Assembly (NCBI GenBank): GCA_040954595.2
Contig: CM082588.2
Span: 9,098,844-9,162,843 of the forward strand
Direction of reading: 5' to 3'
Source: Balanoglossus misakiensis
Lineage: Eukaryota > Animalia > Hemichordata
Length of the DNA: 64,000 nt
Part shown: piece after piece, positions 4,055 to 52,700 of the stretch
Layout of the letters: every line of letters begins with the position of its first letter
Numbering within the stretch: position 1 is the stretch's first letter
Program-made: the position numbers and the translations under genes
Notes under the pieces: model-generated
Told to the model about the DNA's origin: nothing
Databases searched by the model: none
The model's input: only the letters and a program-made list of their open reading frames with translations

Positions 4055-4101
4055 ATCACAGTACTAGAAATATCCCATGATTCATTCCGATTTGTACCAT
4101 C

Positions 4102-9080: not shown

Positions 9081-9142
9081 AAACAGGTATAGTGAGCAGA
9101 GCAGATTAAGTTAGCAGAGGAGTGTCGGTATCGCCCACAGTA

Positions 9143-18700: not shown

Positions 18701-19719
18701 AAATTTCCCATTTTACAGTATGTGACAAGACATTACATGGGACAGGGATGGCAATCAGTCCAGATAATAATTAATTTGTATATGAATAATAAAAAAATTC
18801 ACTCACGCAGTACATAGAGTAAAAAGTTGCACTGTGCATTGTTGCCAGCTGTATCTGAAGCAACATAGCTGATCTGGTAGGTTCCCCAGGAAAAGGTGTC
18901 ACCTGTAAGAACAAAATTATGCCCATCAAAATGTACACCTATTACAGCCATGGGTGTTAAAGCCATTTTTACTTTCAAACTTAGAATGGTCCACATAGGA
19001 TGTGCTGGCCATATATAATAGTAATAATAGTATCTACAAGTTACGGCCACAAGAATAAACTGTACCAGTATGCTTCATACTGACCATAATCTTAGGAAAG
19101 TTATCTCAGCTTGTTGGTTTCAACACTTTTTTTTCTGTTCAGATCAACCCCCACCCCCACCCCAAAAAACAAAAACAAAATTTTATTAGTGTGAATGTTA
19201 TATATTATCTATATTCAGAAATGATGTTTTATAGGAATCTTACCCATTGTATAGGTTTGTGTCACATTGGCAATGGCGACATCATCTGTAAATATAGGCT
19301 CCTGCCATACTCCTGTTGTCAAGCTATTAGGACTAATTATACGGGTCGTATTGGGACAGTAAATGACTTCAGGAGCGTGTTTATCTGAAGAAAAAAGTGA
19401 AAGAATAGTAAATGTGTGTAAATGAAACCACTGGTCCACACCCCCTATGCATATACTGGTACATTTAGGTACATGCACTACTAGATGTTAATATCTGCAA
19501 CTACACTGTCACATATTCATGAGAAATCCAGATATTGTTAAGTGCCTGTTTTCTGATACATGCCAGTGAATAGACTAGATCACTGTCAAGAGACACTAAA
19601 AGATAGGAAAGGAGTCATGAGATGCTATCCATGGGCTTGACTGATATGATCAATTGCACTCATGATACGCCTAACTGTTGGAACAGCAGAAACTGATGAT
19701 GATGATGATGATGATGACA

Positions 19720-19752
<33 letters not shown>

Positions 19753-28700: not shown

Positions 28701-31700
28701 CTATAACCATCTGCAGTGTTGGTACAGGTACCACCATTCAAACAAGGCGACATGTACTCGCATATATCAATAACTGAAATAAACGATGTAAACATAAAAC
28801 TATAATGATCAAATTTTGTCAATATGTTTTTTTTGTAAGAAACTCAACAAATAGGAAAAGAATCTGTAATCAATATATAAGTAAACCCTTCAATTTTTAT
28901 GCCAAATGTACCTACCTATACAGTCATCCAAACTATTGGCACCTTCATGCGTTGTACGCAGTCCTGTTGGACACGGGTTGCATTCTCTGGAACCACTCTC
29001 ATTCTGGTAATAGTGACGGGGACAAAGTACACATGGCTCAAGACCAGTGTTGGAATATGAGCCAACTGTGCATTTTTCTGGAAGTTAAATACAAATTGAA
29101 ATTTTAATATGATGTTGTATCCTGGAAATGATGAAATGAGGCCAAAATAAAAAATATGTGCTTTCCGATTACCCGACCTACCCTAATTATAACCTGCTGA
29201 CCCTAAACTTGTTAGAGCTTCGTAAACCCGGAAGTAAACACAACGATGTTGTCAATCATACAAAATTTATGAAAATAGTGGGAATCACGCAAGAAATATG
29301 ATGTCATTCTTCTACATTATGGTTTTTCTGATGTAAAATGCATAGTGAGAGATAAAAAAATAGCAAAATAAAAAAAATCCCCACCTACCTACCTACCCCA
29401 TTTCTGAAAACCATGTAATCGGAACAGCAAATACTACTTTTTTGGCCTAATAAAGAACTTGGCATTGTAAAATAATCTTCCTACCTTTGCAACTCTCTAC
29501 TGCAACTGCTACCCCGTGTGTTGATGTGTCATTTGGGCACAGATGACAATCACTAGAACCATAATCTGGTTGATAAGATCCTTGCAGACATTGCGTACAT
29601 GGAGCTTTACCATCATCTGAGTAATAGCCTGGTTTACACAACTCTAAAAGTTAAAAAAAAGTTCACAATTTGACCTTAAACACTATATATTCATAAACTG
29701 CATGTACTATTTAGTTTTGAATCATCACGTCATAAAATGTGCGATCTGTTAAATTTAAAGTATTGTCATTTCATGTAATCGCTGGTTTTTTGTTCAAATC
29801 TATTTTGTACGTGTTATCAATACTGTATGTGGAATAAAATATATGAGTCTGTCAGTCACTGTGCTAGCTCATGACGTACATTGTGAATTTAATCAGAGAT
29901 GATGTGGTGTTGTAATAGACTACTTCTCTTACCAATACAGTCATCTTGACTCTTGCTGTGTTTATCGTGTGTACTATAACCTGGTGGACAGGTAATGCAT
30001 GATGTTTGACCAGTGGCATCTTGATAAGATCCAACAGGACAGCTAGCACATCCATCTCCTGTTTCATAGGTTCCAGCTGTACATGTCACTATGATGTAAC
30101 AGTTAAAAAGACGAAGATGTTAAAGTGGAGCGGTCGTCGCGCCACATTTGTTTGTTTATAAACATTTCAATTCATCCACAAATCCCTGAATTGAGATAAT
30201 TCTTAGAATGAACGAAGCAGCCAACCGTAGCGGTGACTGGGCATGACAGCAACTGAAGATCCTAGTAGGTCGTGGCGACTGCAGTGAGGTTTGTGCTGGT
30301 ATGGGAGGACATATTCTCATCAAGGGGGACACCCAAGCGGCGAGGTATATTGGATAGATGAATACTTACAACAATAACAGTCACTAAGAATCTTTCCAGA
30401 TGGACAGCAACATCCTGAGAACTCATTAGTTGGGGCTCCTGACAGATTCAATTCTGGACAAGCACCATTTGCCTCGATTTTGATGAGACTGTTGAATTGA
30501 CTGAACTGAGTTGTAATTGCACTCATTATACTATCACCACAGGTTTGGAGATCTAAACTTGTTATGTTGTCTGTCTTTGCAAGTAATTTCATGGCAACTG
30601 TTGCATTCACCTGCCAGGATGAAAAACACCAAATAGAAAGTTAGGTTTAATGGCTTAAAAGGACACAATAGCTGTAACTTTTGGTTTTATTTTTGCACAA
30701 TGCTGACCATTCACTTATATGTTGTGTTGATAAGCCAAATGCTCAACTTTTCATGATTCTTCAGGTATTTGAACAAGAAACTGCAGTAGATACACAAAAC
30801 AAACATACTGAAAACATAGCAAAAAGATACAGCAAATGTAGCTTTTAAAGGGATCATGTAAAACTGTAAAATTTTCCAGCAGGACAGAATAATACCTGAT
30901 TGGCGTCTACTATGGCCATTGTTGTATAGTCACTTTGAACTTCAACACTGTCTTCAATCGAGTTACACAGGACCGACAACAGTGGTTCAACAGACTGCAC
31001 AATTCCAAGCAGACTCGACTCGTAATATGAGATACATTGGTTGGTATCACTTGGAATGGTTATCACAGAGTTGTATACACCTCCCACAGTCAAGCAATAA
31101 TCTGGAACTTCCTTCTCTGTGGAAAGATCAATATGGAAGAGAATTTAACTTCAGGCCAACTAGTTGAATTGTCAATCGTCAATCCAGTTTTCGCTTTACT
31201 AAGCTGGTGAAAAAATCCTATTTTTGCTAATCCACTCAAATCTGGACTAGCGCCATCTTCCATGCGGTAATGTAGGTATTGACGGATTATAAAAATGTAG
31301 GTATTGACTGATTATAAAATGATCAGCTTATATAAGGGCACACATAGCAAACTGGAAAACACAAATTCCCTCGCATATCAGCAATATACAAAGAAAATTT
31401 GAACCAACAGTAACACTGAATTAGTTGGTTATTTTGGTTCTTCAAGTTTATTATCTGCATCAGCATTCACATATTATTATGGGGCCTAATGAATATTGAT
31501 ATGATAACAGTTGAATTTCAATTACGCAGAAATAGATCAGTAGAAGCCCATACACACCAACACAGTCGGGTACGTAATTATGCGGTAGCCATGTTCCACC
31601 AATTATGCAGGTGTACATTCCTCCAGGTGAATCAATTTCTTGAATGAAATCATAACCAGCTTGACAGGACAATGCACATGAGAATCCTGAACCCAGTGGT

Positions 31701-34700
31701 CCTCCAATGACACGGGTGCAAGTCTTCTGTCCACCTTCTGGTGTAGGTAGTGACCACTCTGGACATGTATCAGCTGAATAACAAATGAGATGTTAAAAGG
31801 TGAAATGTCTAATGTCTCAAAACAATGCCATATTAACTTCTAAATGTTTAAAGTCTCTAGAGCTGCCACCACTTTTTGCATTATTTTCGAAACTCAACTC
31901 AGTACCAGAAAAACGCTCAAAGCAGCATGCACACAAAAAGTATTATAAAGACAAAAAATCACCACAAACACACAAAAGTATTGAGATTCAAAATTCACCA
32001 AGCGACTAGTGGGCTAGTCTAGCTGAACACTTACGTTGAACAGAAACATCAAATTGACACTGAGCCTGGTTGCCACTGTAATCGGTTGCGGTAACAGTCA
32101 CTGTGATGTAGTTCCTGGTTTCAACTGCAGTTCCATTTGGTGGTTCATATATGACATCACTGATTCCGTGGTTGTCTACAACAGAGACTGCTGGATATGA
32201 CACATTGTGTTCCACTTCATCAACAAGAATTACGTACGTGTCTGGACAGTCTAAAGTTGGTGGCATGGTATCTGCAAGCCAAAAAATATTTCATAAGATA
32301 TGAGACTGTAATCTGCTTAGTTTGTAACGAACAAAAATTAATTGTTGCGTAACAGTTGCCTCCTTTGATATCACAAAAATTTCCTGTCGCAAAAATTTCC
32401 TGTTTTACAGTATGACGAGCTAAAGGCTTGTAAAACATACACACTTCTTACAGAGAGCCCACATCATAAGGCCATATTTTGTGAATACCTCTACAGAATA
32501 CCATCACCTGTGAATGCTGTGGTAATCTACATACGAAGCAGCACAAGTTGATTCAGTGATGTCAACATCCACACAATTGATTTACCAAGCTTTGTAGTTG
32601 CCACAAATGAAAGCAGGGAGACAATGCATGAAATCAAATCAAATCAGAATGAAACACAAACAAACATTAAAAATTCAATTCCAACATTGGTTAATTCTTT
32701 CAAGAACTCAATCTGGTGGATCAATTGTTAATGAACATACCGATACAAACAGGTGCAGTCCCATTCCATTTAGCATTAGTGAGAAATAATGACTGTTCAG
32801 ATACATCCCTTCTTTTCCTCACAACTTCCACGGCAGCTGCTGTTGAAATAAGAAGAATTTTTCTGTAAGTAATACTTCATTCATGCTTGTAACACACCAC
32901 TCATAGCAGGCATTCACCTGATGAGCAATTTCATGGCAACAAAAAAACATATTTCATAGGGTAGAGAGCAGCAAGTAAGCTTACATGCTCTGTATCATTG
33001 TAATCTCTGACTGCGAAATTCAAAGTCAGTATAGATTCCTCTGTACATATTGCATCTGCATGTACTATCTAGAAACAAATATTTAAAACATACACACATA
33101 CATACATACGTACATACATACATACATACATCCATACACACATACATGCAGATGCAACCGATCCCATGAGGTCCCATGGTATATATACATTTAAACCAAA
33201 TAGGACCTAAAAAGGGAGAGAGATATTAGTGCCACTTTAGTGTGAATTAGAATAATGATTTTATACATACTGCATCTGATGTTCTGGAAGAGTTCATATC
33301 CTTCAGGACAACAGAATGTTGCATCATCTTCTTGAATTGGGTTTGCAGAAGATGATAGTTGTGGACAATTGTCTGAACTGTCAATGGCAACCAAAACTGG
33401 AAATACACTTGGATGGTTGGTCAGATAAAAGATTAGTTGAAGACCACATCCCGACAATTCTGCATTGTTGTATCCAGGGCTCGATGGGTCTATGGGTTCA
33501 ATCAGTAAGTTCAGCCCCACATCCATTAAAAGCTGCAGGTAAGATGAAAATAGTCATAAGCATTTCTTCTAAAATATGTTATGCTTAATATGTTATATTA
33601 TTATACATCTGGTACTGAGAACAATAGAATTTAGCATGCACTAAAAAAGCCGTACAGAACGGTACGCATGGAACGTGTGTTAAATACGCCTTCAGTTTCA
33701 AGGCGCCCCAACTCACCATGTGCAGGTATGCACTGTTATGCGGACGGTTTCAATACTTCGTGGTATTTTCGTAATAACCTCATAGTATAAACTACTAGTT
33801 ATTTGCATGAAAATATTTTCGCAAGATCTTTTTTCTTTGCATTTGCAATCTGAAGAGCATGTGAGATAAAATGTTATGAACTGAACAATTTGTTGAGTGT
33901 AATGTTCTAGACTCCAGAAAGAGACTACAAGATTTTCTGCAAGACTGAAAGAGACAGTTAGAGTACCCACCGAATTATCCGATAGCGAGGTGAGACTTAT
34001 GGATAATGCGATATTGATTGTAACCAGACCAGCAAGAGGAACACATGCTCCTGATGGATCTTGAGATAGGAGTTGAGTTAAACCATTAACAAGTTGTGTT
34101 GTTATTTCTGTACCATAGTAGTTGCCACAGGATTGCTGGTCTGTGATTTCGCCACTACCATTATATGACACACTAAGCTGTGCACAGTAGTCAGGAACGT
34201 CACGGTCTGCAAAGTAATTATCGAATAATTATAAATACAGTCCCATACAACTCCAATTCTCTTCAGGCCAATTTGTTCAAAGCATAAATGGGTTCAATTC
34301 TTTGTGCTTTATTCAGATTTCAAATTTAACCGTATTATTACTTCATGGTGTGTATTAAAGATACAAGAAAAAAATCACTTTTTGAAATAAACATTTCTCT
34401 GTTAATTATCAAGTTCTGTTAATTATCGAGAATCCCCTAAAAGTATATATTTTCTGAAAACAAATATAGGAGAACATTTTGGTTACTTCAGTGTGACCAT
34501 TGTTTACACAACTATCATGTGACAAGCAATTTAAATTAACTCCCAAACACAAGTTTTCTGGATATTTTGTGTTAAAGCTTTGAGACATCACTCGGATACG
34601 ACGCGTTATCAACCAAACTAAGTATAATAGCCCCAAAGTAACTCTTACCTGGTAGTTGAGTTGGAGTTGGTAGGGTCGTAGGACCAACTGTTGTGGCTTT

Positions 34701-37700
34701 CGGAGTTGTTGCTGGTTTTGTAGTTGGTTTTGTACTGACATCATGATATACTGTATGAATGAATGAGTACTATATATTACAGACTGAACATGAGTGCCTA
34801 TTTGATAAGAGTGGAAAAGTTATTTGACCAACTATATACAGATCAATTGCACTGAGCATTGTTATTGCCTCATTTGTGACAGATTCTGATTCAAACGATG
34901 ACGATGGTAACTAACAATGTATATACTGTTTAACTGTTTACATTGCAGGGATTATGAAAGCTTTTTTTCAATTGAAATTTTCACTGTACCCGTACATGAA
35001 GTTTCTATCAATAAAGCCAAATTTTCAATGTTTTATTATTCATAGTAACTGTTTACTTTATCATTATAGGAAATAAACCAATATTTCTTTGAAAAAAAAG
35101 TGACGAGTGAATGTGTTTTCTCCTTTCTCCCACCCCTCACCCCCTAAAAATAATGGTGTCATCCAGGAGCTAAAGTCGCGTCGACTACATAAACAAGATC
35201 CATCCTTACTTTGGAGCTCATAATGCTGAAAAGTGTAGAAATTGGTATACATTCACCTTTTGATGTTAACAGATCTGTCGGTGCCTCAGTTGTATGTTTT
35301 CTTGTTATTCTTTGGGAAGTGGCTATATCATCAGTTATCATTTGTGTTTGCCATTCTGTGGTGCCTTCCACCGTTTGCCAATATTCTGTGGTGCCGTCCA
35401 TTTTATTTGTTGTCAAAAGTGTCTCTGGTGTGGTGGCGTCCATTTTGTTTGTTGTCAACAATTTCTCTGGTGTGGTCCATGACTCTGTTGGCATCACATC
35501 ACTTGCATCGTCATACTCTGAAGTCTGGTCTGCAGGAGTAATATCCACAGATTCTGCTGTTGACATCATTTCTGTTTTTGAGATCGGAGCAGATGTTGTC
35601 TTGTATGTACCCTCACTTTCTGTGCTTGACTGCTGATCAGGCTTTTCAGAACTTGCCTCTACTGTTGTCACGACAACAGGCATGGTTACTGTAACCATAG
35701 TAACTGTTGTGGTTGACTTGCTTTTTCCAGTTGTCACAGCCGGTATATTGTCTGTGTCCAACACAATTGTCATTCTGGGCGAAGTTATGGCATATCCATC
35801 AGTTGAGATGCTTTTTTCTGTGCCTTCGGTGTAGGGACTAGTTAAATATTCCAGCGTTGTTTCATCTGTTGATAAAAATGAACATTACAATTTGAATAAT
35901 CTAGAACAAGGAAATCTAATGTTATATGTTCTCCACTAACATGAACAGTATTGAATCAATTTTCCTGGCAGGAGACAATTTCAAGGTATTCTCATCCCGG
36001 TGTGTGATTCAAATGATATTGTGTTATTATTCTATTGCTTTCTTTAATGCAATTGTTTATGAGGATGTTGAGATTTCTTATTCAAAATACAGTAAAATAG
36101 GAAGTGTTCGCGAACGATAAATTTACTGGTGAAAAAAAAGTTGCTTATGGTTTTCAGAGATAACGATGCATTGAAATACCAGAACGAGAAAATTAATCGC
36201 CACGTAACAGTTGCCACATTTGATATCATGAACATTTCCTCTTGCGAAAATTTTGCATAAGAGTGTACCAGATATTGGTGTGCAAAACACAATATCAGAT
36301 ATCACAACTAATTTAACAAATTCAGCTATACTCCATTGAAATCATCAGCAACATTGACCTATGTTATACAGTAAACTAATTACATATTGTATAAAATGAA
36401 ACCATCTTACCTTCAAGCGTACTCTCAATTGTTGTAACTATTCCAAAGTCTGGAAGTGTAGTAACTTCAAGCTCATCATCCTCACAATGTCGAAATTGCT
36501 TGGAGGTGTCAATAATCTCATCAAAATCAAACTCTGTAACCCTGTAGTTAATTTTACCAGACACCGAATAGACCTTGACATTGAGAGGGGCTTGTATATC
36601 ACCAGAACCAATGGGTGGTTCAAATAAGTTATCACTGAGTCTGTCTAGAGTAATCCAGGGACCAGTTGTGTGGACTTCCACAGTGGTGACAGGGTAACGA
36701 TGATCTAATATTAATAAGCTGAATGATGCAGAAATGCTCTCTGCAAACTAAATAAACAAATCAATCAATCAATATGCAGTACACTAAAAAGATGAACGAC
36801 ACAGTCCCTAGTTGGTCCTAATACTTTGAAATTTAGAGCAAGACTTACTGTAAAATGGGTTATTTTCGCGAGCATAAATTTTCGCAAAATACGCAAGATC
36901 CAAAAAAGACGTGAAAATAAATGTCGTGTGAAATGTTTTTCAGATTTAACGATGCAGTTAGTGAAATACAAGAACGCCAAAATTAATCCTCGCGTAACAG
37001 TTGCCTCTTTTGATATTGCGAAAAATTTCCTGGCGTGAAAATTTCCCAGTATTTGCAACAAATCTTTGTCAATGACCTAGTCCCCACTGGATCTTCCCTT
37101 GTCCAAATCAGTTGAGACTGGTTTGATTTCCAGGAGATCTAAACTTCCAGTAAAGAAACAGATGAACACTGTTGACAATTTAAACTTCAATCTTACAAAT
37201 ACTTAAAAAAAATGGCTAGGGAGGTTTCAAACAAGTTTGCCAAGATGTGACAATTAAAGACAAGGGTATATAAATTAGTTAATAATTGTTTTGTTTCACA
37301 AACCTTGAACTTGATGGACACATCTTCAGGACAGGCAACAACTGAGTAGGATACAAGAAGAGATGAAGGACTTTCACCATCTGACAAGATGTTGTAAGCA
37401 TCCTCACTTAGAACCAGACCATCTTCATCAATCATGCAGTATGGGTACATGCACATGTCTGTTACCCGGACAACTACAGATGCATCATTTGAACCAATCA
37501 CGTTCAGGCATTGCCCACAAACCTGCAATCACACATGAAGGTATCAAAATGCATGCATTTCAACAAATCAACAAACTCCTTCTTTAGACAACACTGAAGG
37601 TTTTTGTTTTTTAATACAAGGTGCTATTATGAGTTTTAGCTGAGGAAAATAAAAAAACAGTGCAACACACAAAGACAACAAGAGGAAATAAAATTATTCA

Positions 37701-40700
37701 TAACAAAAATTGTTACAAATCATTATGAGAAATAAGAGACCATCTGGACAGTATTAACATTGGAGCCAATGATGTATACAGACTTTCAGAACTAATGTTA
37801 TCTACACTTACATGTGAATCTTGAAAATTGGCCATACCAGCAACCATACTTGTGTAGAATGTTCCAAATGAACAGGTACCATCAGTTGGTGTCTCACTGT
37901 ACTTCTCACAAGTTGCATTTACAAAAGTCTCAAAGGTACCACAATCTCTACTGACTGCAACAACAACATATGTTAACATATATTCAATCAATATGTAATC
38001 TTGGTTTCAATCAGAATCACACAACCATAAAAAATAATTTATGCACAAAATTGAGGGTGTAATGTTATGTGTCATAAACGATACTGATTTTTGAAAAACA
38101 GGCGTATTTTTCTTCGCCTCCAAGGCTCCATGACTTGTACACTTCTGCTGAATTTCAGCCAAATAGTGTGCATTTGGACAGTTGCTGGCAATTGCAAACA
38201 ATGTACAGGACTTTTTTTAAACGGTCCATATTTGTATCTTTTAGCTATTTTTATTCTGAGTGGCAACCAATAGCTGCCCAAGACGAGTTTACATGCGTAG
38301 TCTTTATACGTAGTATAATTACCTGTTGTTACATCATGAGAAGGTGTCACTGGTTTTGTTGTTGATATTTTAGTTGAAAGTGGTTCCGAAGATTTCGATT
38401 GAAATTCAGTGCGTTCGGTGGTCAGTTCTTGGACACTAGTTGTAGGCAGGGATGTACTTGTATCTACATCTGTTACTATTCTTGTTTTGGATTCTGTTGA
38501 CCTGATTTCATATTCTGTTGTCAAAGACTTTTGTGTGACTGGCTCAGCTGTTGTTGGGTTAGGCTTGATATCAGTAGTTGCTCTTTGAGCACTTGTTACA
38601 TCTGTTGCAGTTGGGCCTATATCAGTTCTTGTTGCTGATTCTGTGGTGTCTTCTTCATCTTCCATCGTTGAAAGTATTGTAGGATTGACGCTTGTTGTTA
38701 ACAGAGTTGCAGTTGTGAAAGTCTCGGATATTGCTGAGCTGACTTCATCCTGATCTGTGACTATAACATGGGTGGTCGAGTGGAGACCAGTTGTGACCTC
38801 TTCAGATGAAACTGTTGTACCACTTGTCACTTCAGTTCTTGTAGACCGACTGGTGAAGGAATCAGTCTCAGGCCCCCGGGTTGTAATGTACCCAGGCAAT
38901 GTTGTTGGACCCTCCTGAGTAGATTGCATCTCGTCTGTTTTGGCAGGAAGGAAACGTGAAGAATGAACGCTTCTGATTTCTCACAAACCATAGAATGTCC
39001 ACTACTTGCATTTAATATACATTCATACCTACATTCATACATACATACATACATACATACATACATGCATGCATGCATGCATCCATCCATCCATACATAC
39101 ATACATACATACATACATACATACATACATACAAACATACTGTAAAACGGGTTATTTTCGCGAGCATTAAATTTTTTGCGAAATATGGGATAGCCAAAAT
39201 ACATGAAAATAATAAGTCACATAAAATATTTTTCAGAAATAACTATCCAGTAAAAATAAGAGATCATGAAAATTAATCCTCGCGTAACATTTGCCTCCAT
39301 TGATATCATGAAAAATTTTGTCACAAAAATAACCCGTTTAACAGTACATACATACAGATAGACAGACAGACTACCTTGATCCCATAAGGTCCCATGGTAT
39401 AGTATATATGTATACTGGTATATACCAAATTGGACCTAAACTATGAAACTGAAACACAATCTTACCTTCAAGCGTACTCTCGATTGTTGTAACTATTCCA
39501 AAGTCTGGAAGTGTAGTAACTTCAAGGTCATCATCCTCACAATGTCGAAATTGCTTGGAGGTGTCAATAATCTCACCAAACTGAAACTCTCTAACCCTGT
39601 AGTTAGTTTTACCAGACACCGAATAGACCTTGACATTGAGAGGGGCATGTATATCACCAGAACCAGTGGGTGGTTCAAATAAATTATCACTGAGTCTGTC
39701 TAGAGTAATCCAGGGACCAGTTGTGTGGACTTCCACAGTGGTGACAGGGTAACGATGATCCAATATTAATAAGCTGAATGATGCAGAAATGCTCTCTGCA
39801 AACTAAATAAACAAATCCATCAATCAATATGTGATACACTCACAAAATGAATGACACATACCAGGTTCACACAGGGAAAAATGTGAGACACTATTCGCCT
39901 ATGATAAACTCAGAGCATTGTGTCCACACACAGAAAGTTTGTGTATATGCGTTGAGGCTCGGCCCCATAGACAATCATGAGTTAAAAATACTGATAACAG
40001 GACGGCTTGTGAGGTTTCAAACAATTTTGCAGTGATGTGACAACTACAAGTGAATATTTACTTTTAAGTAGCAATTTAAGACAAGGGTATCTAAATTGGT
40101 TAATAATTGTGTTGTTTCACAAACCTTGAACTTGATAGAGACATCCTCAGGACAGGCAACAACTGAGTAGGATACAAGAAGAGATGAAGGACTTTCACCA
40201 TCTGACAAGATGTTGTAAGCATCCTCACTTAGAACCAGACCATCTTCATCAATCATGCAGTATGGGTACATGCACATGTCTGTTACCCGGACAACTACAG
40301 ATGCATCATTTGAACCAATCACGTTCAGGCATTGCCCACAAACCTGCAATCACACATGAAGGTATCAAAATGCATGCATTTCAACAAATCAACAAACTCC
40401 TTCTTTAGACAACACTGAAGGTTTTTGTTTTTTAATACAAGGTGCTATTATGAGTTTTAGCTGAGGAAAATAAAAAAACAGTGCAACACACAAAGACAAC
40501 AAGAGGAAATAAAATTATTCATAACAAAAATTGTTACAAATCATTATGAGAAATAAGAGACCATCTGGACAGTATTAACATTGGAGCCAATGATGTATAC
40601 AGACTTTCAGAACTAATGTTATCTACACTTACATCTGAATCTTGAAAATTGGCCATACCAGCAACCATACTTGTGTAAAATGTTCCAAATGAACAGGTAC

Positions 40701-43700
40701 CATCAGTTGGTGTCTCACGGTACTTCTCACAAGTTGCGTTTGCAAAAGTCTCAAAGGTATCACAATCTTTACTGACTGCAAAAACAACAACACCAGTATT
40801 AAGATAAATTTAAGCAATAACCCCCACCGCAGGCGGGTATACACGAGATTTGGGTACAATTCGAGACATATAGCACGAGCCGTCAGGCGAGTGCTATATG
40901 GAGCGAATTGTACCCAAATCGAGTGTATACCCGACTGAGGCGGGGGTTATTGCTATTATATTATATCAACAACTGTTTTTGTGGCATATCAGTGTCATTT
41001 TCTTACCGAAACGGTGTCAGAAAGAGAAATTACGATCGTGAACCAAAATGGCGACGACGAATGTAAACACGCGCGGCCGGGATCGAGCATTAAACATGCA
41101 GCAGACGACAAAAAGTGACAAGACGGGCATCGCGCGTGGCAAAGCGACAAATATATCCACAGAGCAGTTCCAAAATAAAACGTCCGTTAATTCAACAGTA
41201 TTTTTGTTTTATTTATTTGGTTTAAACACGCGCGACTGTGGTTTAACCGCACATTTTTGCTGCCGAATGCTAGTTCAGGGGCCCGTTTTACCACTGCTAG
41301 CCATGGTAAAACAGTATTTTACCATCGCTGGATTCAGCTCTCGTCCAATCAGAATCACGGACGGTAGCATGATATAATATAATATTTATTATATTATACC
41401 AGTATATTGATGGTGTAAATCACGCTATTTGATTGGTCGAGACACGACACGTGACCGTGATATATTAGCCATATACCACAGTAATATATCATGGTCAAAG
41501 AAAATGCCTTTTTAAAATGTTTTATGCAAAGTTTCAATATACTGGCATAATATAATAGCAATAAAACACCCCAGCCATGGTATACCACTCGATTTTGACC
41601 AGTTCAACTCCATATACACACTCGCTATCGCTCGTGCGTATATGTCGTGAACTGGTCAAAATCTCGTGGTATACCATGGCTGGGGGTGTTTTATTGCTTA
41701 AATATTCAATCAATATGTAATCTTGGGTTCAATCAAAATCACACAACCATAAAACTTAATTTATGCACAAAAATTGATGGTTTCATGTTATATGTCATAA
41801 ACGATAATGATTTTTGAAAAACAGGTGTATTTTTCTTCACCGCCATGACTTGTATACTTCTGCTGAATTTCAGCCAAATAGTGTGCATTTGGACAGTTGC
41901 TGGCAATTGCAACCAACGTGTACAAGACCTTTTTCTTTGTGGCAACCATTAGCTGCCCAAGATGAGTTTACATGCGTAGTTTTTACAAGTAGTATAATTA
42001 CCTGTTGTTACATCATGAGAAGGTGTCACTGGTTTTGTTGTTGATATTTTAGTTGTTGAAAGTGGTTCTGAAGATTTTGATTGAAATTCAGTGCGTTCGG
42101 TGGTCAGTTCTTTGACACTAGTTGTAAGCAGGGATGTACTTGTTTTGGATTCTGTTGACCTGATTTCATATTCTGTTCTCAAAGACTTTGTAACATCAGG
42201 TGTGATTGGCTCAGCTGTTGTAGGGTTAGGCTTGATGTCAGTTGTTCCTCTTTGAGCACTTGTTACATCTGTTGCAGTTGGGCCTATATCAGTTCTTGTT
42301 GCTGTTTCTGTGGTTGTGTCTTCTTCATCTTCAACTGTTGAAAGTATGGTTGGATTGACGCTTGTTGTTGACAGAGTTGACGTTGTGAAAGTCTCGGATA
42401 TTGCTGAGCTGACTTCATCCTGATCTGTGACTATAACATGGGTGGTCGAGTGGAGACCAGTTGTGACCTCTTCAGATGAAACTGTTGTACCACTTGTCAC
42501 TTCAGTTCTTGTAGACCGACTGGTGAAGGAATCAGTCTCGGGCCCCCGAGTTGTAATGTACCCAGGCAATGTTGTTGGACCCTCCTGAGTAGATTGCATC
42601 TCATCTGTTTTGGCAGAAAGGAAACACGAAGAAAATAAGCAAATGTGAAAATTAATCCTCGCATAATAACAGTTGCCTCCATTGATATCGCAAAAAAATT
42701 TCCCATCACGAAAATAACCCGTTTTACAGTACATACATACAGACAGACTAAACTGAACCTATAAGGTCCCATGGTATAATGTATACCGGTATACAGTACA
42801 TACATACAGACAGACTAAACTGATCCTATAAGGTCCCATGGTATAATGTATACCGGTATACAGTACATACATACAGACAGACTAAACTGATCCTATAAGG
42901 TCCCATGGTATAATGTATACCGGTATACAGTACATACATACAGACAGACTAAACTGATCCCATAAGGTCCCATGGTATAGTATATATGTATACTGGTATA
43001 TACCAAACAGGACCTAAACTATGAAACTGAAACACAATCTTACCTTCAAGCGTACTCTCGATTGTTGTAACTATTCCAAAGTCTGGAAGTGTAGTAACTT
43101 CAAGCTCATCATCCTCACAATGTTGAAATTGCTTGGAGGTGTCAATAATCCCACCAAACTGAAACTCTCTAACCCTGTAGTTAATTTTACCAGACACCGA
43201 ATAGACCTTGACATTGAGAGGGGCTTGTATATCACCAGAACCAATGGGTGGTTCAAATAAGTTATCACTGAGTCTGTCTAGAGCAATCCAGGGACCAGTT
43301 GTGTGGACTTCCACAGTGGTGACAGGGTAACGATGATCCAATATTAATAAGCTGAATGATGCAGAAATGCTCTCTGCAAACTAAATAAACAAATCAATCA
43401 ATCAAAATATGGTACACTCAAAAAATGAATGACAGTCCCTAGTCGGTCATAATATTTTGAAATTAGAGCAACAAATTATTGTCAATGTCCTAGTCCCCAC
43501 TGGATCTGCCCTAGTCCAAATCAGTTGAGACTGGTTTGATTTCCAAGAGATCTAAACTTCCAGTAAAGAAACAGATGGACCACTCCTGACAATTTTAACT
43601 TCAATCTTACAAATACTATTTAAAATGTGGCTAGTGAGGTTTCAAACAATTTTGCAGTGATGTGACAACTACAGGAAATATTTACTTTTAAGTAGCAATT

Positions 43701-46700
43701 AAAGAAAAGGGGATCTAAATTAGTGAATAATTGTGTTGTTTCACAAACCTTGAACTTGATAGAGACATCCTCAGGACAGGCAACAACTGAGTAGGATACA
43801 AGAAGAGATGAAGGACTTTCACCATCTGACAAGATGTTGTAAGCATCCTGACTTAGAACCAGACCATCTTCATCACTCATGCAGTACGGGTACATGCACA
43901 TGTCTGTTACCCGGACAACTACAGATACATCATTTGAACCAATCACGTTCAGGCATTGCCCGCAAACCTGCAATTACACAAACCAAAAAACTCCTTTAGA
44001 CAACACTGGAAATACTACAGTATGCAGTTTTTTTCAAGTACATTTAGTGATTATATCAATCTTGGGTGAGAAATTTAAAAAAATACAGTGCAACACACAA
44101 AACAAGACAAAATAAAATCATTCATAACAATGTTACAAATCACAATGAGAAATTGGAGACAATCTGGTCAGTATTGACACTGGAGCAAAACATTTACCGG
44201 TACATAGACTTTCAAGAACCTAACTTTATACTTACATGTGAATCTTGAAAATTGGTCATACCAGCAACCATACTTGTGTAGAATGTTCCAAATGAACAGG
44301 TACCATCAGTTGGTGTCTCACTGTACTTCTCACAAGTTGCGTTTACAAAAGTCTCAAAGGTTCCACAATCTCTACTGACTGTAAAATCAACAACACAAGC
44401 AAGATATTCTTTGCTGCAAGAAGAGTTAATATCCTAAAATGGGTTTGTGTGGTACATTTTCTAATCTGGTGAAATGTGTTTGAGTGTAAGCTTTTATCAT
44501 TTATTTACAGGTATGGGACCTTGTACAGTGGTGATATATCATCTACAATGAAGACCAATTGATGATGTACATGTACAGCAGAGAAATTTCCTGATTTGTG
44601 CTGCTTTCTGATACTGAAACACATATCGACTAGCCATGTTCGGATAACAGCATACGTTTGTGTCCCCTCGGGAATGCAAATTACCCCCAAAACAATCTGT
44701 TTCCATCGGCCTTCAGCCTCTAAAAACAGACTGTTCTGGGTTGACTCACAGTCCCTTAGGGAAACAAATGTATGCTGTTGCCCTCACTGCCAGTCAATAT
44801 GCACAGTTTATCGGTACACACACACATTCAGCAGAAGCCATAATATTGTTCAGTAATTGCAATGTATATTACTATATATGTGATAATGGGGCAAGACTTG
44901 ACTAGCGCTATGCTATGTTTCTTACTCCATATTGCCAATGTAAAAAAATAGATATACTGGTATACGGTATTAAGTATTTACCATATCTCTGCCACAAAAT
45001 ATATTCCTTTCTTAAATTGTGGCAATAAAAGGACAAATACTGATATGAATACGAATTATACGAATACACAGTATAATTACCTGTTGATACATCATGAGAA
45101 GGTGTCACTGGTTTTGTTGTTGATATTTTAGTTGAAAGTGGTGCACTAGTAGTTTCAGATGTTGTAAATTCTTTATCTGAATCTGTCGTTGGTTTTCTTT
45201 CAGTCACAGTGATTGCCTGCGTTGATGGCGCCTCATAACCTGCATATGGAAATCAAGTCATTCTGCATTAAAATATGTGAGATTCCATAGATCTCACTAA
45301 TGATTATTTAATATCAATTATTTAATATAACTATATGATAAATAACTTGACTGGAATGGAATTTGGATGTTATTGCTACATTTTGCTACACAACCTATTA
45401 CTGATGTACACACAGAACGTAAACTTGTAAACTGCGCAAATTCGTGCACATTTGTCTCTTCGCATGGGATTAGATTGATATAAACTCACTACTATTGTCA
45501 TTTTCATGACAATTTAGCTCAGTTAAATGAAAATAAATTCATTGGTCAAATAAAATTGTATGGTCACCACAGTCTATTCAGAGATAAATATCGTTAAATG
45601 TTTTTGGGTAAAGAAATGCTGACTCAGCTGTTTGTTTGTTTTTCAACTACACAAGGCCATGACTAAATTCAAGCATGGTGACTCCTGTATTATACAGCTT
45701 TTCATTATGCTAACAAATGAGAAACCAAAAATCCACAATTAAAAGAAATGAGATACTATCACTTCCACTGAGAGGACATCTGTAAAGTAAACTTGTCATA
45801 TTGTTTTCAGATATTCAGTTGATGTTTGTACTTGACGTACCTGTTGCATCTCTTGTTTGAGCATCAGTGTGTACTCTTGCCGTCGTGGTTACCAAATCAT
45901 CTGTGTGTACTTTTGTCGCCGTGGTTGCCACATCATCTGTGTGTACTTTTGCCGTTGTGGTTACCATGCCATCTGTCTGTGCTCTCTTGGTGGTTCTCAT
46001 AACATCTGTGTCTGCAGCTGCTGTGGAGATTTTCATCCGCAATGTGGTCACTTCTTCCTCTTCTGTTGCAGCTCTGTCAGTTCCATCCATTTCTGTCGTC
46101 CCAAGCTCTGCAGTTGACATGTCTGTGACCGTTTCCGTTTCTATGACAATGGAGGCAATAGAGGTTATGCTGATTGAATTCTGTTTGTCAAGTTTCACTT
46201 CAACATTCAAATAGCTTTTAAAGCCTCTCTGTTGTTTTGGAAGCGGGCATTCTGAACCATTTCTCCATATATCACACTACATGAACATAGAAGTTATCAC
46301 GGTACTGTTTCAGCACACCACGATGTTTATAAGAGCAGTATATACACACCAGTAGTTGTAGTAGAAGGTGTTGTTGGCAACACAGTCACAACATCTCCTT
46401 CACACATCAAAGGGTTTGGATGGCTTGGTGTGAATCCATAGTCACAACTGAATGACACTATAGAACCAATGTCGAAATCATTGCCATGTCTCTGACCGTT
46501 GACTGGTGTACCAGGATCTTGACATTCTCCTGAGGTCAAGAAGCAAAGTATCTTATCAATATTAAATCATCAACTCAGACAGAAGTCATTCCTTACAAAA
46601 ACATTCTATATACATCATTCTACAGAATTCATTAGCCTTTTGAATTTCTATATAAGTTTAAATTATTTCTATGGACATCTATATATTTGTATGTAGTTTT

Positions 46701-49700
46701 CGAAGTTGCTTAAAATGTTTTTCGGAAATAACGATGCAGTGAAATACAAGAAAGTGAAAAAGTAGTAGTCGCAGTGTAACAGTCGCCTTTTTTGATATTG
46801 CGAAAATTTCTGGCCCAAAAATTCCCCATTTTACACTGTATTCAAACAACACATTGTGTGTGAATGTCATGAATTTCATCAGAGTATAACTATTTTTCAA
46901 ACAGAAGTGGTTGCTTCTCTGAAAGAAATATTCTTTTCTATGTTACCCTGGGCAACACATCTTGGTCTGGTGCCATTCCATGTTCCATCTTCAGTGCAAT
47001 ATCTCCTGGTGTTACCAAGTGCTTCATATGCCATGTTACACTGGAGTGTAGCAACACTATCATACCAAGTGCCATCACTATATTCCCATGAGCCATCTTC
47101 AATCACAGTCAACAAACCACAGTCAACACCTAGAAATAATAATAGTGAGTTCTTATATAGCGCACATATTTTCTTTGAAGTATTGAAGTCTGTTTCTATT
47201 GAATTCTATAGAAATGATAGAATCTATAGAATGACAATTCAGAGTTTTGCCGTGGTGATCTTCGGTACAATATGCATTAAAGTTATGTAGCACTCTTTGA
47301 TCAACAGTTGAAATTACAGCATGAGCTTGAAATCTTCCACGAGTGCATCTGAAGAAGGGGACTACATGTTCCCGAAAGCTCATGCTGTAGTTTCAACTGT
47401 TGATCAAAGAGTGCTCCATAACTTTAATGCGTATTGCAATCTATAGAATGCAAAAGAATTCTGAGGAATATAAGGTATAGCATTATTCATTCCTGTTACT
47501 CACGTTGACAGACAGGAGGAGAGGAATTCCATCGGTAATCACCATCTTGACTGCTGTAGGTACACACTCTGACATGGCTACCATATAAGTTGTATCCAAT
47601 GTCACAACTATAGGTCACTTCACTCTGATAGTTGTAGTTGGGGTCATTGACCTCGTAGCTGCCATGATCAATACTCTCTGGTTCACTGCAGACAGCAGCT
47701 GTAGAAAATACACGTAGAGTTGAGTTGAAGGAAGAGCCTGGGATAAATCTGTAATCACTTTTTAAGGGACAAAGTCTCTCTCTCGCTGCCCTTTTTCCAT
47801 TAATTATATTTAATACAAGACACCGTTTGTGTTATTCTACATGTGGATATGTAGTGAATCAACGTTCAACCACACACAACTTCCATACGCCAAATTCTAT
47901 TGTTCTCGATGCCAGATGTATAATAATATCAAGGTTTTCTGATTAAAAAAAAAAATATTGACTTACGTGTGCAAGTTGGAAAGTCCGCATCATACTGGCC
48001 TTCCACTGTACACAACAGAGTGGACTGTCCATTCAGTTGAAAACCCTCCAAACAATAGAATGTAATGGTGCTATTGAACTCCACCAGAATATCACCAGTT
48101 TCCTCTATGTTCCAGACTAGGGATCCTTCACGTGGATTTGGAATAGGGATTGGGTTGGAAATGTTGGGTACAATACACGTCACGGCTGTACAAGATTAGG
48201 AATAAGAAGAGAATATTGGTGAAGTACACACAAATTAATATATGTTTTTATAGAATGACAAACTATAGCCATTACATAGAACACTAAATGTCAATCTTTG
48301 TACTATTCGTACATGAAACTTTTCTTTCAAATACAACTTACAGACCAACATAGACAGTCATGCTTATATAAGTATGACTATCTATTAAAGTAACATTCAT
48401 ATCATGATTGTTGTTTTACACTGTGTTTTCAAAGTAATAATTGTTGCAGTAAACCAATTGCCTTGCTTGGAAATATTAAAAGGGAAGTCCAGTCCAGCTG
48501 ATTTATGCATAATTTCTACACAATGTTTTTTTCTGAAAGAATAACCTCAAAGCTACCAAATTATGTAGCTGAACCGGACTTCCCCTTTAAATGCTACCAG
48601 TGAGCTTGTTTGTCTTTGTAAATACACGACAAGTATTAATCCCCTTTTCCTCAGAATTCAATGCATGTTCATGCCATAAGGTGAGAGCACACTTTTGTTA
48701 GCAGGAGGGAAACAAATCCAAAATGAATAATAACGGTGCAAAGTTGGTCTGCTGAGTTTCTCCACATTTCATAACTGAATTACGGCAAAATTATGAAATC
48801 CAATTATGAAATTCAGCCATTTGTCCAATTTTTGTCGCTGCAAATTCATTGCGGTATAAAGGTCAATAATATGACAAATATTGGTTAAAGGTATACAGTC
48901 ACCTCCAATTTATATATGCCCATATATGGCTGAAATGGCGTATTAGAGCCTTCTAAAGAACATATCGTGGCGCTCTTTTTTCACGTGTACCTCCCACTGA
49001 AAGTCTGTGATTGGCTAGATTTCAATTTTCCATGGTTACTATTATAGCTAATTTTCCATGGGTGATCATATACCTTTAACTCTATAGTTTAACATGATAC
49101 TTACGAACACATGATTGGTTAAAAGTGTAGACATCATACATTGAGAGACCAGTTTCTCCAGGTGGCAGATAGAATCCACCTGTGCCGTTATTTGCATATA
49201 AGAGATAGCCTTCTTCACAGGAACATTGAAAACCACCTGCAGTGTTTTCACAAAGTTGATCACAAGAATGTGAAGCACATTCATTTATATCTACAAAGTA
49301 GTAAAGAAGGAACATGGGTTGGATTAAAAAATTGCATTAAGGATGTACGTTCAGTAATTTGTGCCACACCTTTCCAAAAGTGTCTGATCAGTGTAAAATT
49401 CAGCTGAATTTAGTGGGGGGGGGGGATATCAGTGAAAAATTCAGCAATTTTTGGGAGAAAAAAAGTCTGTGAAATAATTAGTTGAACATTTCCTTCTACA
49501 AAACAGTTCAGCTGATATTTTAGAGAAAACAGATGAACATTTCCAGGAAATGACTGTTTTTAGGTTGTGAATGAACTTAAAAGATAAATTACGATAAAGT
49601 TGTGTCAAGGTGATGGCAAAACTTTAATATGTCTGTTGAAGAAAATTTAAAATTACAAGGAAATTCTGAAAATTTATCCAGATAGTTTGGAATGTGTTAA

Positions 49701-52700
49701 ATGTGAATAGTGACTTGAAGTTACGTTGTATGTGACTGGTTATGTCTCACCTTTGCATGCTGTTCCATTCACATCCGGTTCAAATCCCACCAGACATGCA
49801 CATTGATAGTCACCATCTCTATTTTCACAGACTTGATTGATTCCACATGGTGCCACCAATGTACTACATTCATTGATATCTGAAATGTTATTCATCACGA
49901 TATGATCAAAATCCCAGAGGTCCAAGGCGAAAATTCGGACCAACAAGTTTAGCTGGGTATTAGACCAACGGGAAATTTTCGCAAAACAGTAAATTTTTAC
50001 GCTAGAGAGCCAAAAAAGACGTAGTGAAAATAAAAATTCGCTTAAAAATGTTTTTCAGTGATGACAATGCAGTGAAATACGAGAACATGAAACTTAATCG
50101 TCTCGTAACAGTTTCTGCTTTTTATATTGCGAAAATTTCCGGTCGCAAAAATTTCCTGTAGCGATAAAGGGCACTTATATGAGGATATTAAAACTCAGGG
50201 GGTGGGGGTGAGGGGTGGGGGAATTATGCAGTCACGTACTGGCCGAACAATTGGAGGTTGTAGAATATAAGGTTATTCACAAAATACCGGGATTTATGTC
50301 CGAGTACATCGTGCAGCGCAGGTATTGTCCGAGACGCGCAGCGTCGAGGACAATACCGAAGCGTACGATGTACGAGGACATAAATCCCGGTATTTTGTGA
50401 ATAACCTTATTATTATACACCTTTTCCGAACGTTCTTCATGAACGATAAAGAATAAATAGGCCGCTATCGGACTTTCTAGTTTTCAGACGCCGCCATGAA
50501 ATAATTTGCATATCGAACGCGCCTTGACCTCGTGCATCAGGTGATGCTAGTGTCGAGCTGCCGATGTCTCGCGCGCGACGTTCTACGCTGCTTGCGCTGA
50601 ACGCGCTCGCCTGTTCGTTCACAGATTGCTTCGACTGAAATTTCAGCGTGGATTTTGACTTATTTCGCATCTTGGGTCACCAATAATTTTGTTTAATAAC
50701 GGCTGTGTACTTTTTATATAAATTTTTGTCAGAGTAGGGTTAATATCATTGTTTACATTGATCACCGGTCCTGTGAGGTCAAAGTCACAATGCGTCCAAT
50801 AACCCTGTGGGTTATGGGACTCCGCGTCCTCATTTGAATAATTATTGTACAGTGATACCGCGAATTATTGTATCATGGAACTCCATAGGTTACAGCAGTA
50901 GGTGTATAATAATAATTAATTATCCAAAGATTAGTGGGTGGTCAAACTAATGGAGCAGTCGAATTACTGGAGTGATTACAATAACTCAGGCCAAAAAATG
51001 AAATGTTTCTGGTCAGCGCGTGGGTCACTTGAATAACAGCACGTCACACCCATTTTTTTCCTGGTTTGTGGTGGCGGCCACGGCAAACTCAAACTGCTTC
51101 AACTAGATATAAATCACTGGACATTTTGGGGCGTGTAATCAGTGATGGCATGAACAACTTGTACATAGAACTATATTGATACAACTATAAAACTGACCGT
51201 CCTTCTTCCCTGGAGAGAAATTTTTATTTTTTAAATTTGCGTCCCCCCACCAGTTTTTAAAGAAGGGTCTGACCAGAAACATGTCCTCTTTTTGGCCTAA
51301 TAAGCAGACAATCACATGAAGACCAATCATGATGTGAACTTACCAATGCATGATGGTATTGCATCATTCCACTGTAAATCTGATTGACAAGTCAGATAAT
51401 CAGCACCATTTAATTCATAGCCAGCATCGCAATAGAATGTGATGTTGCTGCCCATATAATATGGTCCACTATCTGGGACAGCTTGTAAATGTTGGTCTGT
51501 TATGAGTATATCACTGCAGTTTAATCCTGCAAGTAAAAATAAAATAAAACATCTCAATGGATTATGTGGATGCAGACTTAATTGTGGTACATGTATCAGG
51601 TACCTATATGCTGTAACAACATTTTCACCCCAAGTTCCCTCTATAAAGGTCCAGATTTACCATAGAAATCAATGGATTTTCCGATTACATGGTATTCAAA
51701 AATAGGGTAGGTAGGCAGAAGTATTCATAAACGTTATACCTTGGTATGGTACTGTATTTTTCAGTGTGAATAAGATAAAAACGCAAATTTTCTTAAATTA
51801 CCGCGGAGCTCTTTCTTTATGTCACTCATTCCTAACAATGAACGGATTAAGATATGGGGCCTGTTTATAGTATAGTTAGGCCTTTAAATGACTTACGTTG
51901 ACAGTATCCCGGATCTCCAATCCAAGATCCATCTTCACCACATGTAGAGACAGTGTAGCCAGTCAGACTGTAGCCAGATGGACATGAGTAGGCAATGGTT
52001 GTTCCAAAAACCAATGAATCACCATTAACAATTTCATATGATAAGTAGTTGTCTACATTCGGTGGTGGACACTCACGAGCTGTTTGGTTAAGATTAACAG
52101 ATAACATCACAAGTAAGTTACTACTAGGAAAATTGTTTAAAGGGACATTACATGTAGCAGTAACTCTCACAATCTTGCATATTTTCAAGCTACCAGTGTC
52201 TGGTTTAACATTCAGAGTGTAATGTCCCAATTAGACACCCATGTGGAATGTAGCAACCAGCACAAAGTGCCCCATCATAACGCTATGGAGAGAATTTCAA
52301 CTTGAGTCAGTGATTTTTATGAAAACATGACAGCTAGTGAACACCCTGTGTTATACTTTGTTTTCAAAACGACTCCTCACACACTTTAAAGCCTCTAGAG
52401 CTGCCAAATTTCACAATTTTTTTCTTTTCCACAGTAAAACCCTTCAAATCTATGGTGATGCATACCACGATAGCTAGCTGCATACTGTTTGTATGGAGGC
52501 TGATTTTAATAAAATGGGTACGGCACCTGTTTAATACATTGCGCGTTTAAATTGCAACATGCAGCCACAATCAGGCATTGATAACCTGTTCCTGTATACC
52601 TATCAGTAAGCTTAATTATTTCAATGTACCAATCTACGTCGGAAAATAAAATCTGAAAATAAATGCAAAAAGTGGCAGCTCTAGAGGCTTTAGGTGTGCA

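What the first reader, a model, noticed from the sequence alone, without database searches (positions are those of the whole stretch)
36411..44378. Three complete expansin-like (DPBB + CBM63) modules spliced into an animal Uif-like cell-surface receptor
Seen: three exons join to give ...[69 protein letters not shown]...[66 protein letters not shown]...[11 protein letters not shown]...IIDTSKQF. This occurs three times, in frame with the receptor. Known: the motif order (GACGFG, CGxCxxV, VxVTDxC, xDLSxxAF, xYxxVxC, NHxYPVxxVE, WxxLxR..xNxF, PLxVR, terminal QF) is that of two-domain expansins/EXLX, which bind or loosen polysaccharides in plants, bacteria, fungi and amoebozoa. Inference: to my knowledge these are not a described module of animal EGF/Sushi/CUB receptors. 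This may be a domesticated, possibly horizontally acquired, glycan-binding module displayed on mucin stalks at an apical surface.
Basis: partly seen in the sequence, partly recalled or inferred. Interest (0 to 1): 0.95.

Follow-up and report, generated by a model that had tools for sequence, protein, structure and literature searches.

The report
Disarmed expansins in acorn-worm surface receptor
An acorn-worm gene for a giant cell-surface receptor contains three copies of the two-part expansin module known from plant and microbial wall-loosening proteins; they lack the residues expansins use on cellulose, so they likely serve as binding knobs on a predicted sugar-coated side arm of the receptor.

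Summary
Three 3-exon modules (minus strand, phases 1-0-0-1, 232 codons) splice in frame between mucin exons of a lectin-LDLa-CUB-Sushi-EGF-HYR single-pass receptor. Homology to two-domain expansins is clear from profiles and folds. RefSeq models of Saccoglossus (3 modules) and Ptychodera (2) show the same fusion, unnamed, so it likely predates their split more than 370 My ago. The host is probably an acorn worm. Two corrections. First, 0 of 8 receptor modules keep EXLX1 Asp82 or any of the W125/W126/Y157 aromatics, against 12 of 12 bacterial expansins, so wall loosening and cellulose binding are unlikely. Second, horizontal acquisition is unsupported: acorn worms have free expansin genes, and other animals have annotated ones. 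New: the whole mucin-expansin block sits inside one split Sushi domain, just before a furin-type site, which suggests a disulfide-tethered side arm. No RNA test was possible. Ten paper searches found no description, and the scan had not noted this architecture before.

The parts
44236..44378 (-). Module 1 exon A (N-terminal part of DPBB domain 1), phase 1 to 0
   Evidence: (62% to Ptychodera 1615-1664)
43749..43967 (-). Module 1 exon B (DPBB core CGQC...VRVTD.C and linker); Val at the Asp82 position
43044..43380 (-). Module 1 exon C (CBM63-like domain 2 plus short Thr tail), phase 0 to 1; aromatic triad absent
42002..42604 (-). Mucin-like spacer exon, 200 aa, 48% Ser/Thr/Pro, phase 1-1
40633..40775 (-). 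Module 2 exon A
40125..40343 (-). Module 2 exon B
39466..39802 (-). Module 2 exon C
38323..38934 (-). Mucin-like spacer exon, 203 aa, 96% identical to the previous spacer
37812..37954 (-). Module 3 exon A
37304..37522 (-). Module 3 exon B
36411..36747 (-). Module 3 exon C
46350..46529 (-). N-terminal part of a split Sushi domain (3 of 4 Cys; Pfam positions 1-46 of 56), followed by the start of the Thr-rich stalk
45081..46140 (-). Two mucin-like exons (46140-45841, 45239-45081) before module 1
34649..35865 (-). Two mucin-like exons (35865-35257, 34750-34649) after module 3
33271..34206 (-). Two exons (34206-33971, 33532-33271) of an 8-Cys domain with no Pfam match; SEA-like by recall only
32741..32836 (-). 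Small exon with a furin-type RKRR site followed by the WNGTAPVC end of the split Sushi domain
46947..63577 (-). Upstream receptor exons: C-type lectin (part), LDLa, 3 CUB, Sushi repeats, 2 EGF; the first exons appear to lie beyond the window end
11136..32271 (-). Downstream receptor exons: HYR, Sushi-like, ephrin-receptor-like repeats, EGF array, pentraxin/LamG, HYR, more repeats, EGF, transmembrane exon (about 11818-11722), cytoplasmic tail

Best explanation
Three expansin-fold modules lacking the cellulose-binding and loosening residues are encoded in frame within an acorn-worm Uif-like receptor, and they likely act as non-catalytic binding knobs that tether the animal's own mucus or surface matrix to the cell. 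Shown: the modules are two-domain expansin homologues; the fusion is shared by three acorn worms; Asp82 and W125/W126/Y157 are absent; the modules are acidic; the mucin-expansin block of 1,500-1,800 aa interrupts one Sushi domain just ahead of a furin-type site. Inferred steps: (1) an existing acorn-worm expansin gene was shuffled in as a symmetric phase-1 module before the Saccoglossus-Ptychodera split; (2) the two Sushi halves would pair through their second and fourth cysteines, closing the insert into a loop; (3) furin would open the loop at RKRR, leaving the stalk as a side arm held to the membrane-anchored half by a disulfide; (4) O-glycosylated spacers of about 200 aa would hold the knobs apart above an epithelial surface; (5) copy number changes by tandem duplication and homogenisation within each lineage. 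The ligand is unidentified; a host mucus glycoprotein or matrix protein is the most likely class.
For: Homology: NCBIfam EXLX1 matches colinear on exons B and C; E 5e-66 for P0001 (3 stretches) and 2.5e-38 for P0009 (2 stretches). A profile of receptor modules alone finds six expansin sequences first in the PDB, best E 1.3e-15. The model of the Ptychodera module (61% identical to the window's) matches only expansins at E<=0.001 (12 of 12; TM 0.66-0.74), with Z 15-18 over 181-191 residues. Folded without any canonical expansin rows, domain 2 still ranks five expansins and Phl p 2 first (Z 8.2-11.9). Fusion conserved: the window gene is colinear with Saccoglossus XP_077862127 and Ptychodera XP_070567428. 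Constraint: module exons are 62% identical to Ptychodera against 66% for 51 other exon hits. Residue loss: 0 of 8 receptor modules versus 12 of 12 bacterial rows; the roles of these residues are from PMC5072189. Net charge is -15 to -19 per window module. Split Sushi: a WNGTAP-containing 9-mer ranks first among 1699, 1818 and 1505 candidates in the three species, and cysteine counts pair up only if the terminal Cys joins the 3-Cys half. Receptor modules form one side of the tree (98/93), and copies group by species for the window and Saccoglossus.
Against: No binding, localisation or expression data exist. An older Saccoglossus model (P0010, 3097 aa) skips the whole block, and symmetric phases would allow skipping. 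Domain 1 folded poorly without expansin rows in the alignment (pLDDT under 50 for residues 1-114), so its fold rests on sequence profiles and on a model informed by expansins. An AU test did not reject grouping the receptor modules with bacteria rather than with free acorn-worm expansins (p 0.079). In a first, cruder Sushi control the Ptychodera join (29.2 bits) scored below the best of 300 random joins (31.1). Some orthologous modules carry one aromatic residue elsewhere in the same loop, and acidic expansins can still bind cellulose (PcExl1, abstract start). Differences among the window's copies give no clear selection signal (pN 0.020-0.031, pS 0.026-0.058). Orthology to fly Uif was not tested.
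Confidence: 0.5

Rival explanations
1. The modules still bind foreign polysaccharide (algal or bacterial walls, chitin) through a changed surface, so the arm captures food particles or senses microbes during mucociliary feeding.
For: The fold is intact, with Asp71 and the HRYP and R.S.N.F motifs kept. The receptor also has a C-type lectin domain. Hemichordates feed by mucociliary capture (PMC4729200). An anemone expansin is fused to a chitin-binding domain.
Against: All three stacking aromatics and Asp82 are gone in 8 of 8 modules. The surface is strongly acidic, whereas BsEXLX1's wall binding has an electrostatic, lysine-dependent part. Some free acorn-worm expansins keep the canonical site and could do this job (P0002 second module, P0007).
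Confidence: 0.22
2. The modules are structural beads: disulfide-rich, protease-resistant spacers that stiffen or lengthen a mucin stalk and have no specific ligand.
For: Copy number varies (3, 2, 3) and copies are homogenised together with their mucin spacers. The known functional surface is lost.
Against: Conservation matches that of the receptor's CUB, Sushi and EGF domains (62% vs 66%). Several positions are invariant in all 8 receptor modules but rare in other expansins (for example Q51 0 of 19, D81 1 of 19, Y106 1 of 19).
Confidence: 0.18
3. The module exons are usually skipped, or belong to a minor isoform or a mis-joined gene model, so the common receptor lacks them.
For: Saccoglossus model P0010 omits them; the block is phase-symmetric; no RNA reads were available.
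Against: Current RefSeq models in two species include them (Ptychodera isoforms X1-X3 are 4527-4528 aa). The block has no start, signal peptide or stop of its own. One DNA contig covers 35009-36457, linking module 3 to the next stalk exon.
Confidence: 0.07
4. The module was acquired directly from a bacterium by horizontal transfer into the receptor gene.
For: The AU test does not reject a receptor-plus-bacteria grouping (p 0.079); expansins move between lineages often (10.1101/637728).
Against: The closest relatives among 1.84 billion representatives are acorn-worm proteins (4 of 5 hits). All 14 hemichordate modules fall on one side against 12 bacterial rows (99/98). The module has two introns, and annotated expansins occur in several animal phyla.
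Confidence: 0.05

Closest known systems
Microbial two-domain expansins (EXLX): B. subtilis EXLX1/YoaJ 2bh0 and 3d30, Talaromyces 7wvr, Clavibacter 4jcw; NCBIfam NF041144
   Same: DPBB domain 1, linker and CBM63-like domain 2 in the same order and length; Asp71 and the domain-1 cysteines kept; TM about 0.7.
   Different: Asp82 is Val or Ala; W125, W126 and Y157 are non-aromatic; strongly acidic; split by two introns; embedded in a 4,500-4,800 aa membrane receptor. The fusions listed in the passages read are to GH5, CBM1, CBM2, CBM32/discoidin, chitin-binding or dockerin modules.
Drosophila Uninflatable (Uif)
   Same: Large single-pass protein with a C-type lectin, three CUB, Sushi/CCP, HYR and EGF repeats (PMC3340373).
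   Different: Fly Uif has two FA58C putative carbohydrate-binding domains and no reported expansin or mucin block. No FA58C is listed for either acorn-worm orthologue. Sequence orthology was not tested.
Free acorn-worm expansin-like proteins (Saccoglossus APU50764 'expansin-yoaj protein-like protein 170', XP_006812521; Ptychodera XP_070533744)
   Same: Nearest relatives of the module (25-33% identity); tandem two-module layout; XP_006812521 also has a Thr-rich stalk and a hydrophobic, probably membrane-spanning segment and also lacks the key residues.
   Different: Short proteins without CUB, Sushi or EGF domains; some modules keep Asp82 and the aromatic triad.
Saccoglossus XP_077862127 and Ptychodera XP_070567427-9 (RefSeq 'uncharacterized protein')
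   Same: Orthologues with the same order of domains, expansin modules, split Sushi and furin-type site.
   Different: Three and two modules; the window's three are 93-96% identical to each other and derive from one module closest to Ptychodera module 1 (61%).

Membership tests
Two-domain expansin (EXLX) | N-terminal double-psi beta-barrel domain | tested here: met
   NCBIfam positions 39-109, E 3e-7; Pfam DPBB_1 below cut-off on exon B alone; fold match with an expansin-informed model; not confidently folded without expansin rows
Two-domain expansin (EXLX) | C-terminal CBM63/Expansin_C beta-sandwich | tested here: met
   NCBIfam positions 119-193; independent model gives Z 10-11.9 to five expansins; Pfam Expansin_C itself not hit by exon C
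Two-domain expansin (EXLX) | Domain 1 and domain 2 contiguous in about 200 aa | tested here: met
   One continuous match over profile positions 11-209 of 210
Two-domain expansin (EXLX) | Asp82 required for wall loosening | tested here: not met
   Val in 7 and Ala in 1 of 8 receptor modules; Asp in 12 of 12 bacterial rows; role from PMC5072189
Two-domain expansin (EXLX) | Aromatic triad W125/W126/Y157 for cellulose binding | tested here: not met
   No aromatic at these columns in 8 of 8 receptor modules; aromatic at all three in 12 of 12 bacterial rows
Two-domain expansin (EXLX) | NF041144 curated cut-off of 100 bits | tested here: inconclusive
   Orthologues pass only as sums over repeats (221.7 bits over 3, 131.3 over 2); the window's spliced module was not scanned against the library
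Two-domain expansin (EXLX) | Non-lytic wall loosening or cellulose binding activity | not testable with these tools
   Needs recombinant protein
Uninflatable-type receptor | C-type lectin, three CUB, Sushi, HYR and EGF array, single membrane span | tested here: met
   the lectin match is weak on a partial exon (E 0.068)
Uninflatable-type receptor | Two FA58C domains | tested here: not met
   No such Pfam family listed for P0001 or P0009; fly inventory from PMC3340373
Uninflatable-type receptor | Sequence orthology to fly Uif | not tested
   No fly sequence was returned by any search
Uninflatable-type receptor | Apical surface localisation | not testable with these tools
   Known for fly Uif from a reference title only

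The most novel reading that the evidence does not exclude
Acorn worms carry a branched receptor. A plant/microbe-type expansin was domesticated, stripped of its cellulose site and repurposed as a new animal extracellular binding module. It is displayed on a mucin arm inserted inside a single Sushi domain, which folds from halves 1,500-1,800 residues apart and keeps the furin-cut arm tethered by one disulfide.
Probability: 0.45. Interest if true: 0.85.

Novelty: new variant of a known kind. Interest (0 to 1): 0.72.

Why it matters
A survey of expansins across life left open whether the few animal expansin annotations are real genes or contamination (10.1101/637728). Intron-split modules inside a conserved animal receptor of three acorn worms settle that for this lineage. 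The finding adds the expansin fold to the set of modules that animals shuffle into surface proteins. It also gives a natural 'disarmed' expansin, conserved for more than 370 My, for testing what the fold does without Asp82 and the aromatic face. If the split-Sushi reading holds, it describes a way to graft a very large, cleavable side arm onto a receptor, which may bear on mucus tethering in filter-feeding deuterostomes.

Tried and rejected
Word-based homologue searches with exon B or exon C found nothing among proteins up to 2000 aa (71 and 166 candidates); the orthologues are longer. RNA: no RNA holder was listed. Five RNA runs added by species label gave 1, 0, 0, 0 and 0 reads, which is no test. 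The two holders gave intron-containing contigs, i.e. DNA, one sample, possibly the assembly's source. No whole genome is held for this window. ESM Atlas hits (Expansin_C 0.86, Barwin/DPBB 0.86) are under 0.9 and count as leads only. A plasmid search with exon C gave one chance hit. A metagenome scan with free acorn-worm expansins confirmed none of 594 candidates, and a scan with receptor modules could not be set up. P0005 (32-aa match to a repeat protein) and P0011 (Acanthaster HYR-repeat protein, no expansin match) were rejected as relatives. The complex prediction for the two Sushi halves was not available, so that fold test is missing. An assembly-echo explanation was rejected because the introns differ between copies. 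The first tree missed one free Ptychodera module and was redone with it; near-duplicate rows P0003, P0007 and P0008 were left out of the trees, and no non-hemichordate eukaryote was available. Absence in other deuterostomes was not shown: only 1305 long candidates were scored, and the representative library hides relatives within 50% clusters. Paper searches found no description of this fusion. The supplementary PDF of PMC4729200 was too large to read and could mention acorn-worm expansins; PMC2790384 was not held.
Full report
Observation. The window holds most of one large minus-strand gene, from about 63,600 down to 11,136. Between 44,378 and 36,411 lie three copies of a three-exon unit. Every exon has AG/GT ends and an open frame; the phases run 1-0-0-1 and join phase-1 mucin-like exons (22 of 22 exons tested pass). 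A 20-exon chain from the last Sushi exon to the first HYR exon gives 1830 codons without a stop. The three modules are 93-96% identical in protein. Their introns are 69-93% identical in 11 of 12 comparisons and 100% in one, so they are recent tandem duplicates with some homogenisation rather than an assembly echo. A six-frame scan found no further module pieces beyond these nine exons, apart from one weak hit at E 0.56.

Expansin homology. Exon B alone hits Pfam DPBB_1 and Barwin below cut-off, and its only PDB hit is a fungal EXLX1 (E 0.53). Exon C's three PDB hits are all expansins (best E 0.0037). Against NCBIfam expansin_EXLX1, exon B covers positions 39-109 (E 3e-7) and exon C covers 119-193 (E 1.1e-5). 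The joined modules score 70-72 bits against a profile of 12 bacterial expansins, versus at most 5.3 for 500 shuffles. A profile of receptor modules only finds six expansin sequences first in the PDB (best E 1.3e-15). I folded the orthologous Ptychodera module, 61% identical to the window's. With expansin rows in the alignment, pLDDT was 77; all 12 Foldseek matches at E<=0.001 were expansins, and VIA-align gave Z 15.4-17.8 over 181-191 residues. Without such rows, domain 1 was poorly modelled, but domain 2 still ranked five expansins and Phl p 2 first.

The host gene. Pfam scans of the exons give LDLa, three CUB, Sushi repeats, two EGF, more Sushi, then the mucin-expansin block, HYR, ephrin-receptor-like repeats, an EGF array, pentraxin, HYR, more repeats and EGF. 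A transmembrane exon and a short tail follow. This resembles the domain list of fly Uninflatable, except that fly Uif has two FA58C domains (PMC3340373, passages read). A search of 1.84 billion representatives with exon C gave 5 hits, 4 of them from acorn worms. The best, Saccoglossus XP_077862127 (4825 aa), is the same receptor with three modules on mucin stalks, colinear with the window along its length. Ptychodera XP_070567428 has two modules. The window is closer to Ptychodera (66% over 51 non-module exon hits, 1 order inversion in 50), so the host is probably an acorn worm. The two lineages split more than 370 My ago (PMC4729200, passages). An older Saccoglossus model lacks the whole block, which may reflect an assembly gap or a skipped isoform. 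No RNA test was possible.

Loss of the working surface. In B. subtilis EXLX1, Asp82 is required for loosening and W125, W126 and Y157 contact cellulose (PMC5072189, passages). I mapped these positions through the PDB alignments. Asp82 is Val or Ala in 8 of 8 receptor modules, and none has an aromatic residue at the three columns. All 12 bacterial rows keep Asp82 and all three aromatics, as do the second module of free Ptychodera P0002 and Saccoglossus P0007. The Phe that follows in the window's loop is not a substitute, because free acorn-worm expansins carry it in addition to WW. Several other free or membrane-anchored acorn-worm modules have also lost some or all of these residues. Window modules carry a net charge of -15 to -19. 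Yet the modules are about as conserved as the receptor's other domains (62% vs 66%), so they are maintained for something other than classical expansin work.

A split Sushi domain. The exon before the stalk matches only positions 1-46 of the 56-position Sushi model and has three cysteines. A small exon at 32836-32741 carries RKRR followed by WNGTAPVC, the usual Sushi ending; both orthologues have the same arrangement. When every 9-mer of the insert is appended to the half domain and scored with a profile of 12 intact Sushi domains, a WNGTAP-containing segment ranks first of 1699, 1818 and 1505 in the three species. An earlier control with 300 random joins was passed by the Saccoglossus join but not by the Ptychodera join. 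Cysteine counts in Ptychodera (3 + 8 + 8 + 8 + 1) pair up only if the last one joins the half domain. By established Sushi disulfide pairing (first with third, second with fourth; recalled), the insert would be a loop. Furin cleavage (motif recalled) would convert it into a tethered side arm. This is inference; a co-folding test could not be run.

Origin. In a 26-row tree the 8 receptor modules form one side (98/93), next to a Saccoglossus membrane-anchored expansin (96/92). All hemichordate rows separate from 12 bacterial rows (99/98), and window and Saccoglossus copies group by species. An AU test does not reject a receptor-plus-bacteria grouping (p 0.079), and no other eukaryotes were sampled, so the deep origin is open. 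Expansin-like genes are annotated in bivalves and Oikopleura, flagged as possibly contaminant (10.1101/637728, passages), in Spongilla mesocytes (PMC10176882, passages) and in an Exaiptasia pedal-disc table (PMC6626399, one passage). Recruitment from the animal's own expansin gene by shuffling of a symmetric phase-1 module is the simplest reading.

Novelty. Ten searches of the paper library found no description of expansin modules in an animal receptor. The hemichordate genome paper has no mention of expansin in its main text or two readable supplements; its supplementary PDF and one table could not be read. PMC12867482 and 10.1101/229468 were seen as passages only and added nothing. Subscription papers were not searched. 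The scan's earlier notes held nothing on this locus or sequence. Verdict: a real, conserved and apparently undescribed fusion, best filed as a new variant of two known kinds: an expansin-fold module that fails the functional-residue tests, inside a Uif-like receptor.

Noticed in passing
window 2262-9127: Foldback-like element downstream of the receptor: 53-bp satellite arrays in opposite orientations (2262-3251, 18.7 copies; 6735-9127, about 45 copies) with unique inverted arms just inside. A 103-aa plus-strand frame at 3743-4051 recalls a transposase tail but has no Pfam match.
   Followed up: partly
window 36846-42731 (introns): Several copies of a short element with inverted ends starting TACTGTAAAA, plus hairpins at 40813-40954, 41569-41685 and 44646-44779; probably miniature inverted-repeat transposons.
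   Followed up: no
P0004 (Saccoglossus XP_006812521): A second membrane-anchored design: two degenerate expansin modules, a Thr-rich stalk and a hydrophobic segment. It also lacks Asp82 and the triad and is the nearest neighbour of the receptor modules in the tree.
   Followed up: partly
window 33271-34206, 30371-31116, 16360-17229: Three related-looking cysteine-framed domains of about 150 aa with no Pfam match in the four exons scanned at a loose threshold; two are associated with RxxR sites. SEA-like by recall only.
   Followed up: no
window 37523-37811 and 40344-40632: The A-B intron is 100% identical between copies 2 and 3 (289 of 289) while the flanking exons differ, which suggests a recent gene-conversion tract.
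   Followed up: no
window 11136-11397; P0001 and P0009 tails: The short cytoplasmic tail keeps HPGWE.QE and YHYNPMY motifs and ends in RYF or AYF in all three species; the NPxY-like motif may bind adaptors (recalled).
   Followed up: no
L001:456-1712; L004: Uncultured Bacteroidota-group genomes carry canonical expansins (7 of 401 genomes above cut-off, one with three copies); the L001 protein has a C-terminal extension resembling a type IX secretion tail (by eye).
   Followed up: no
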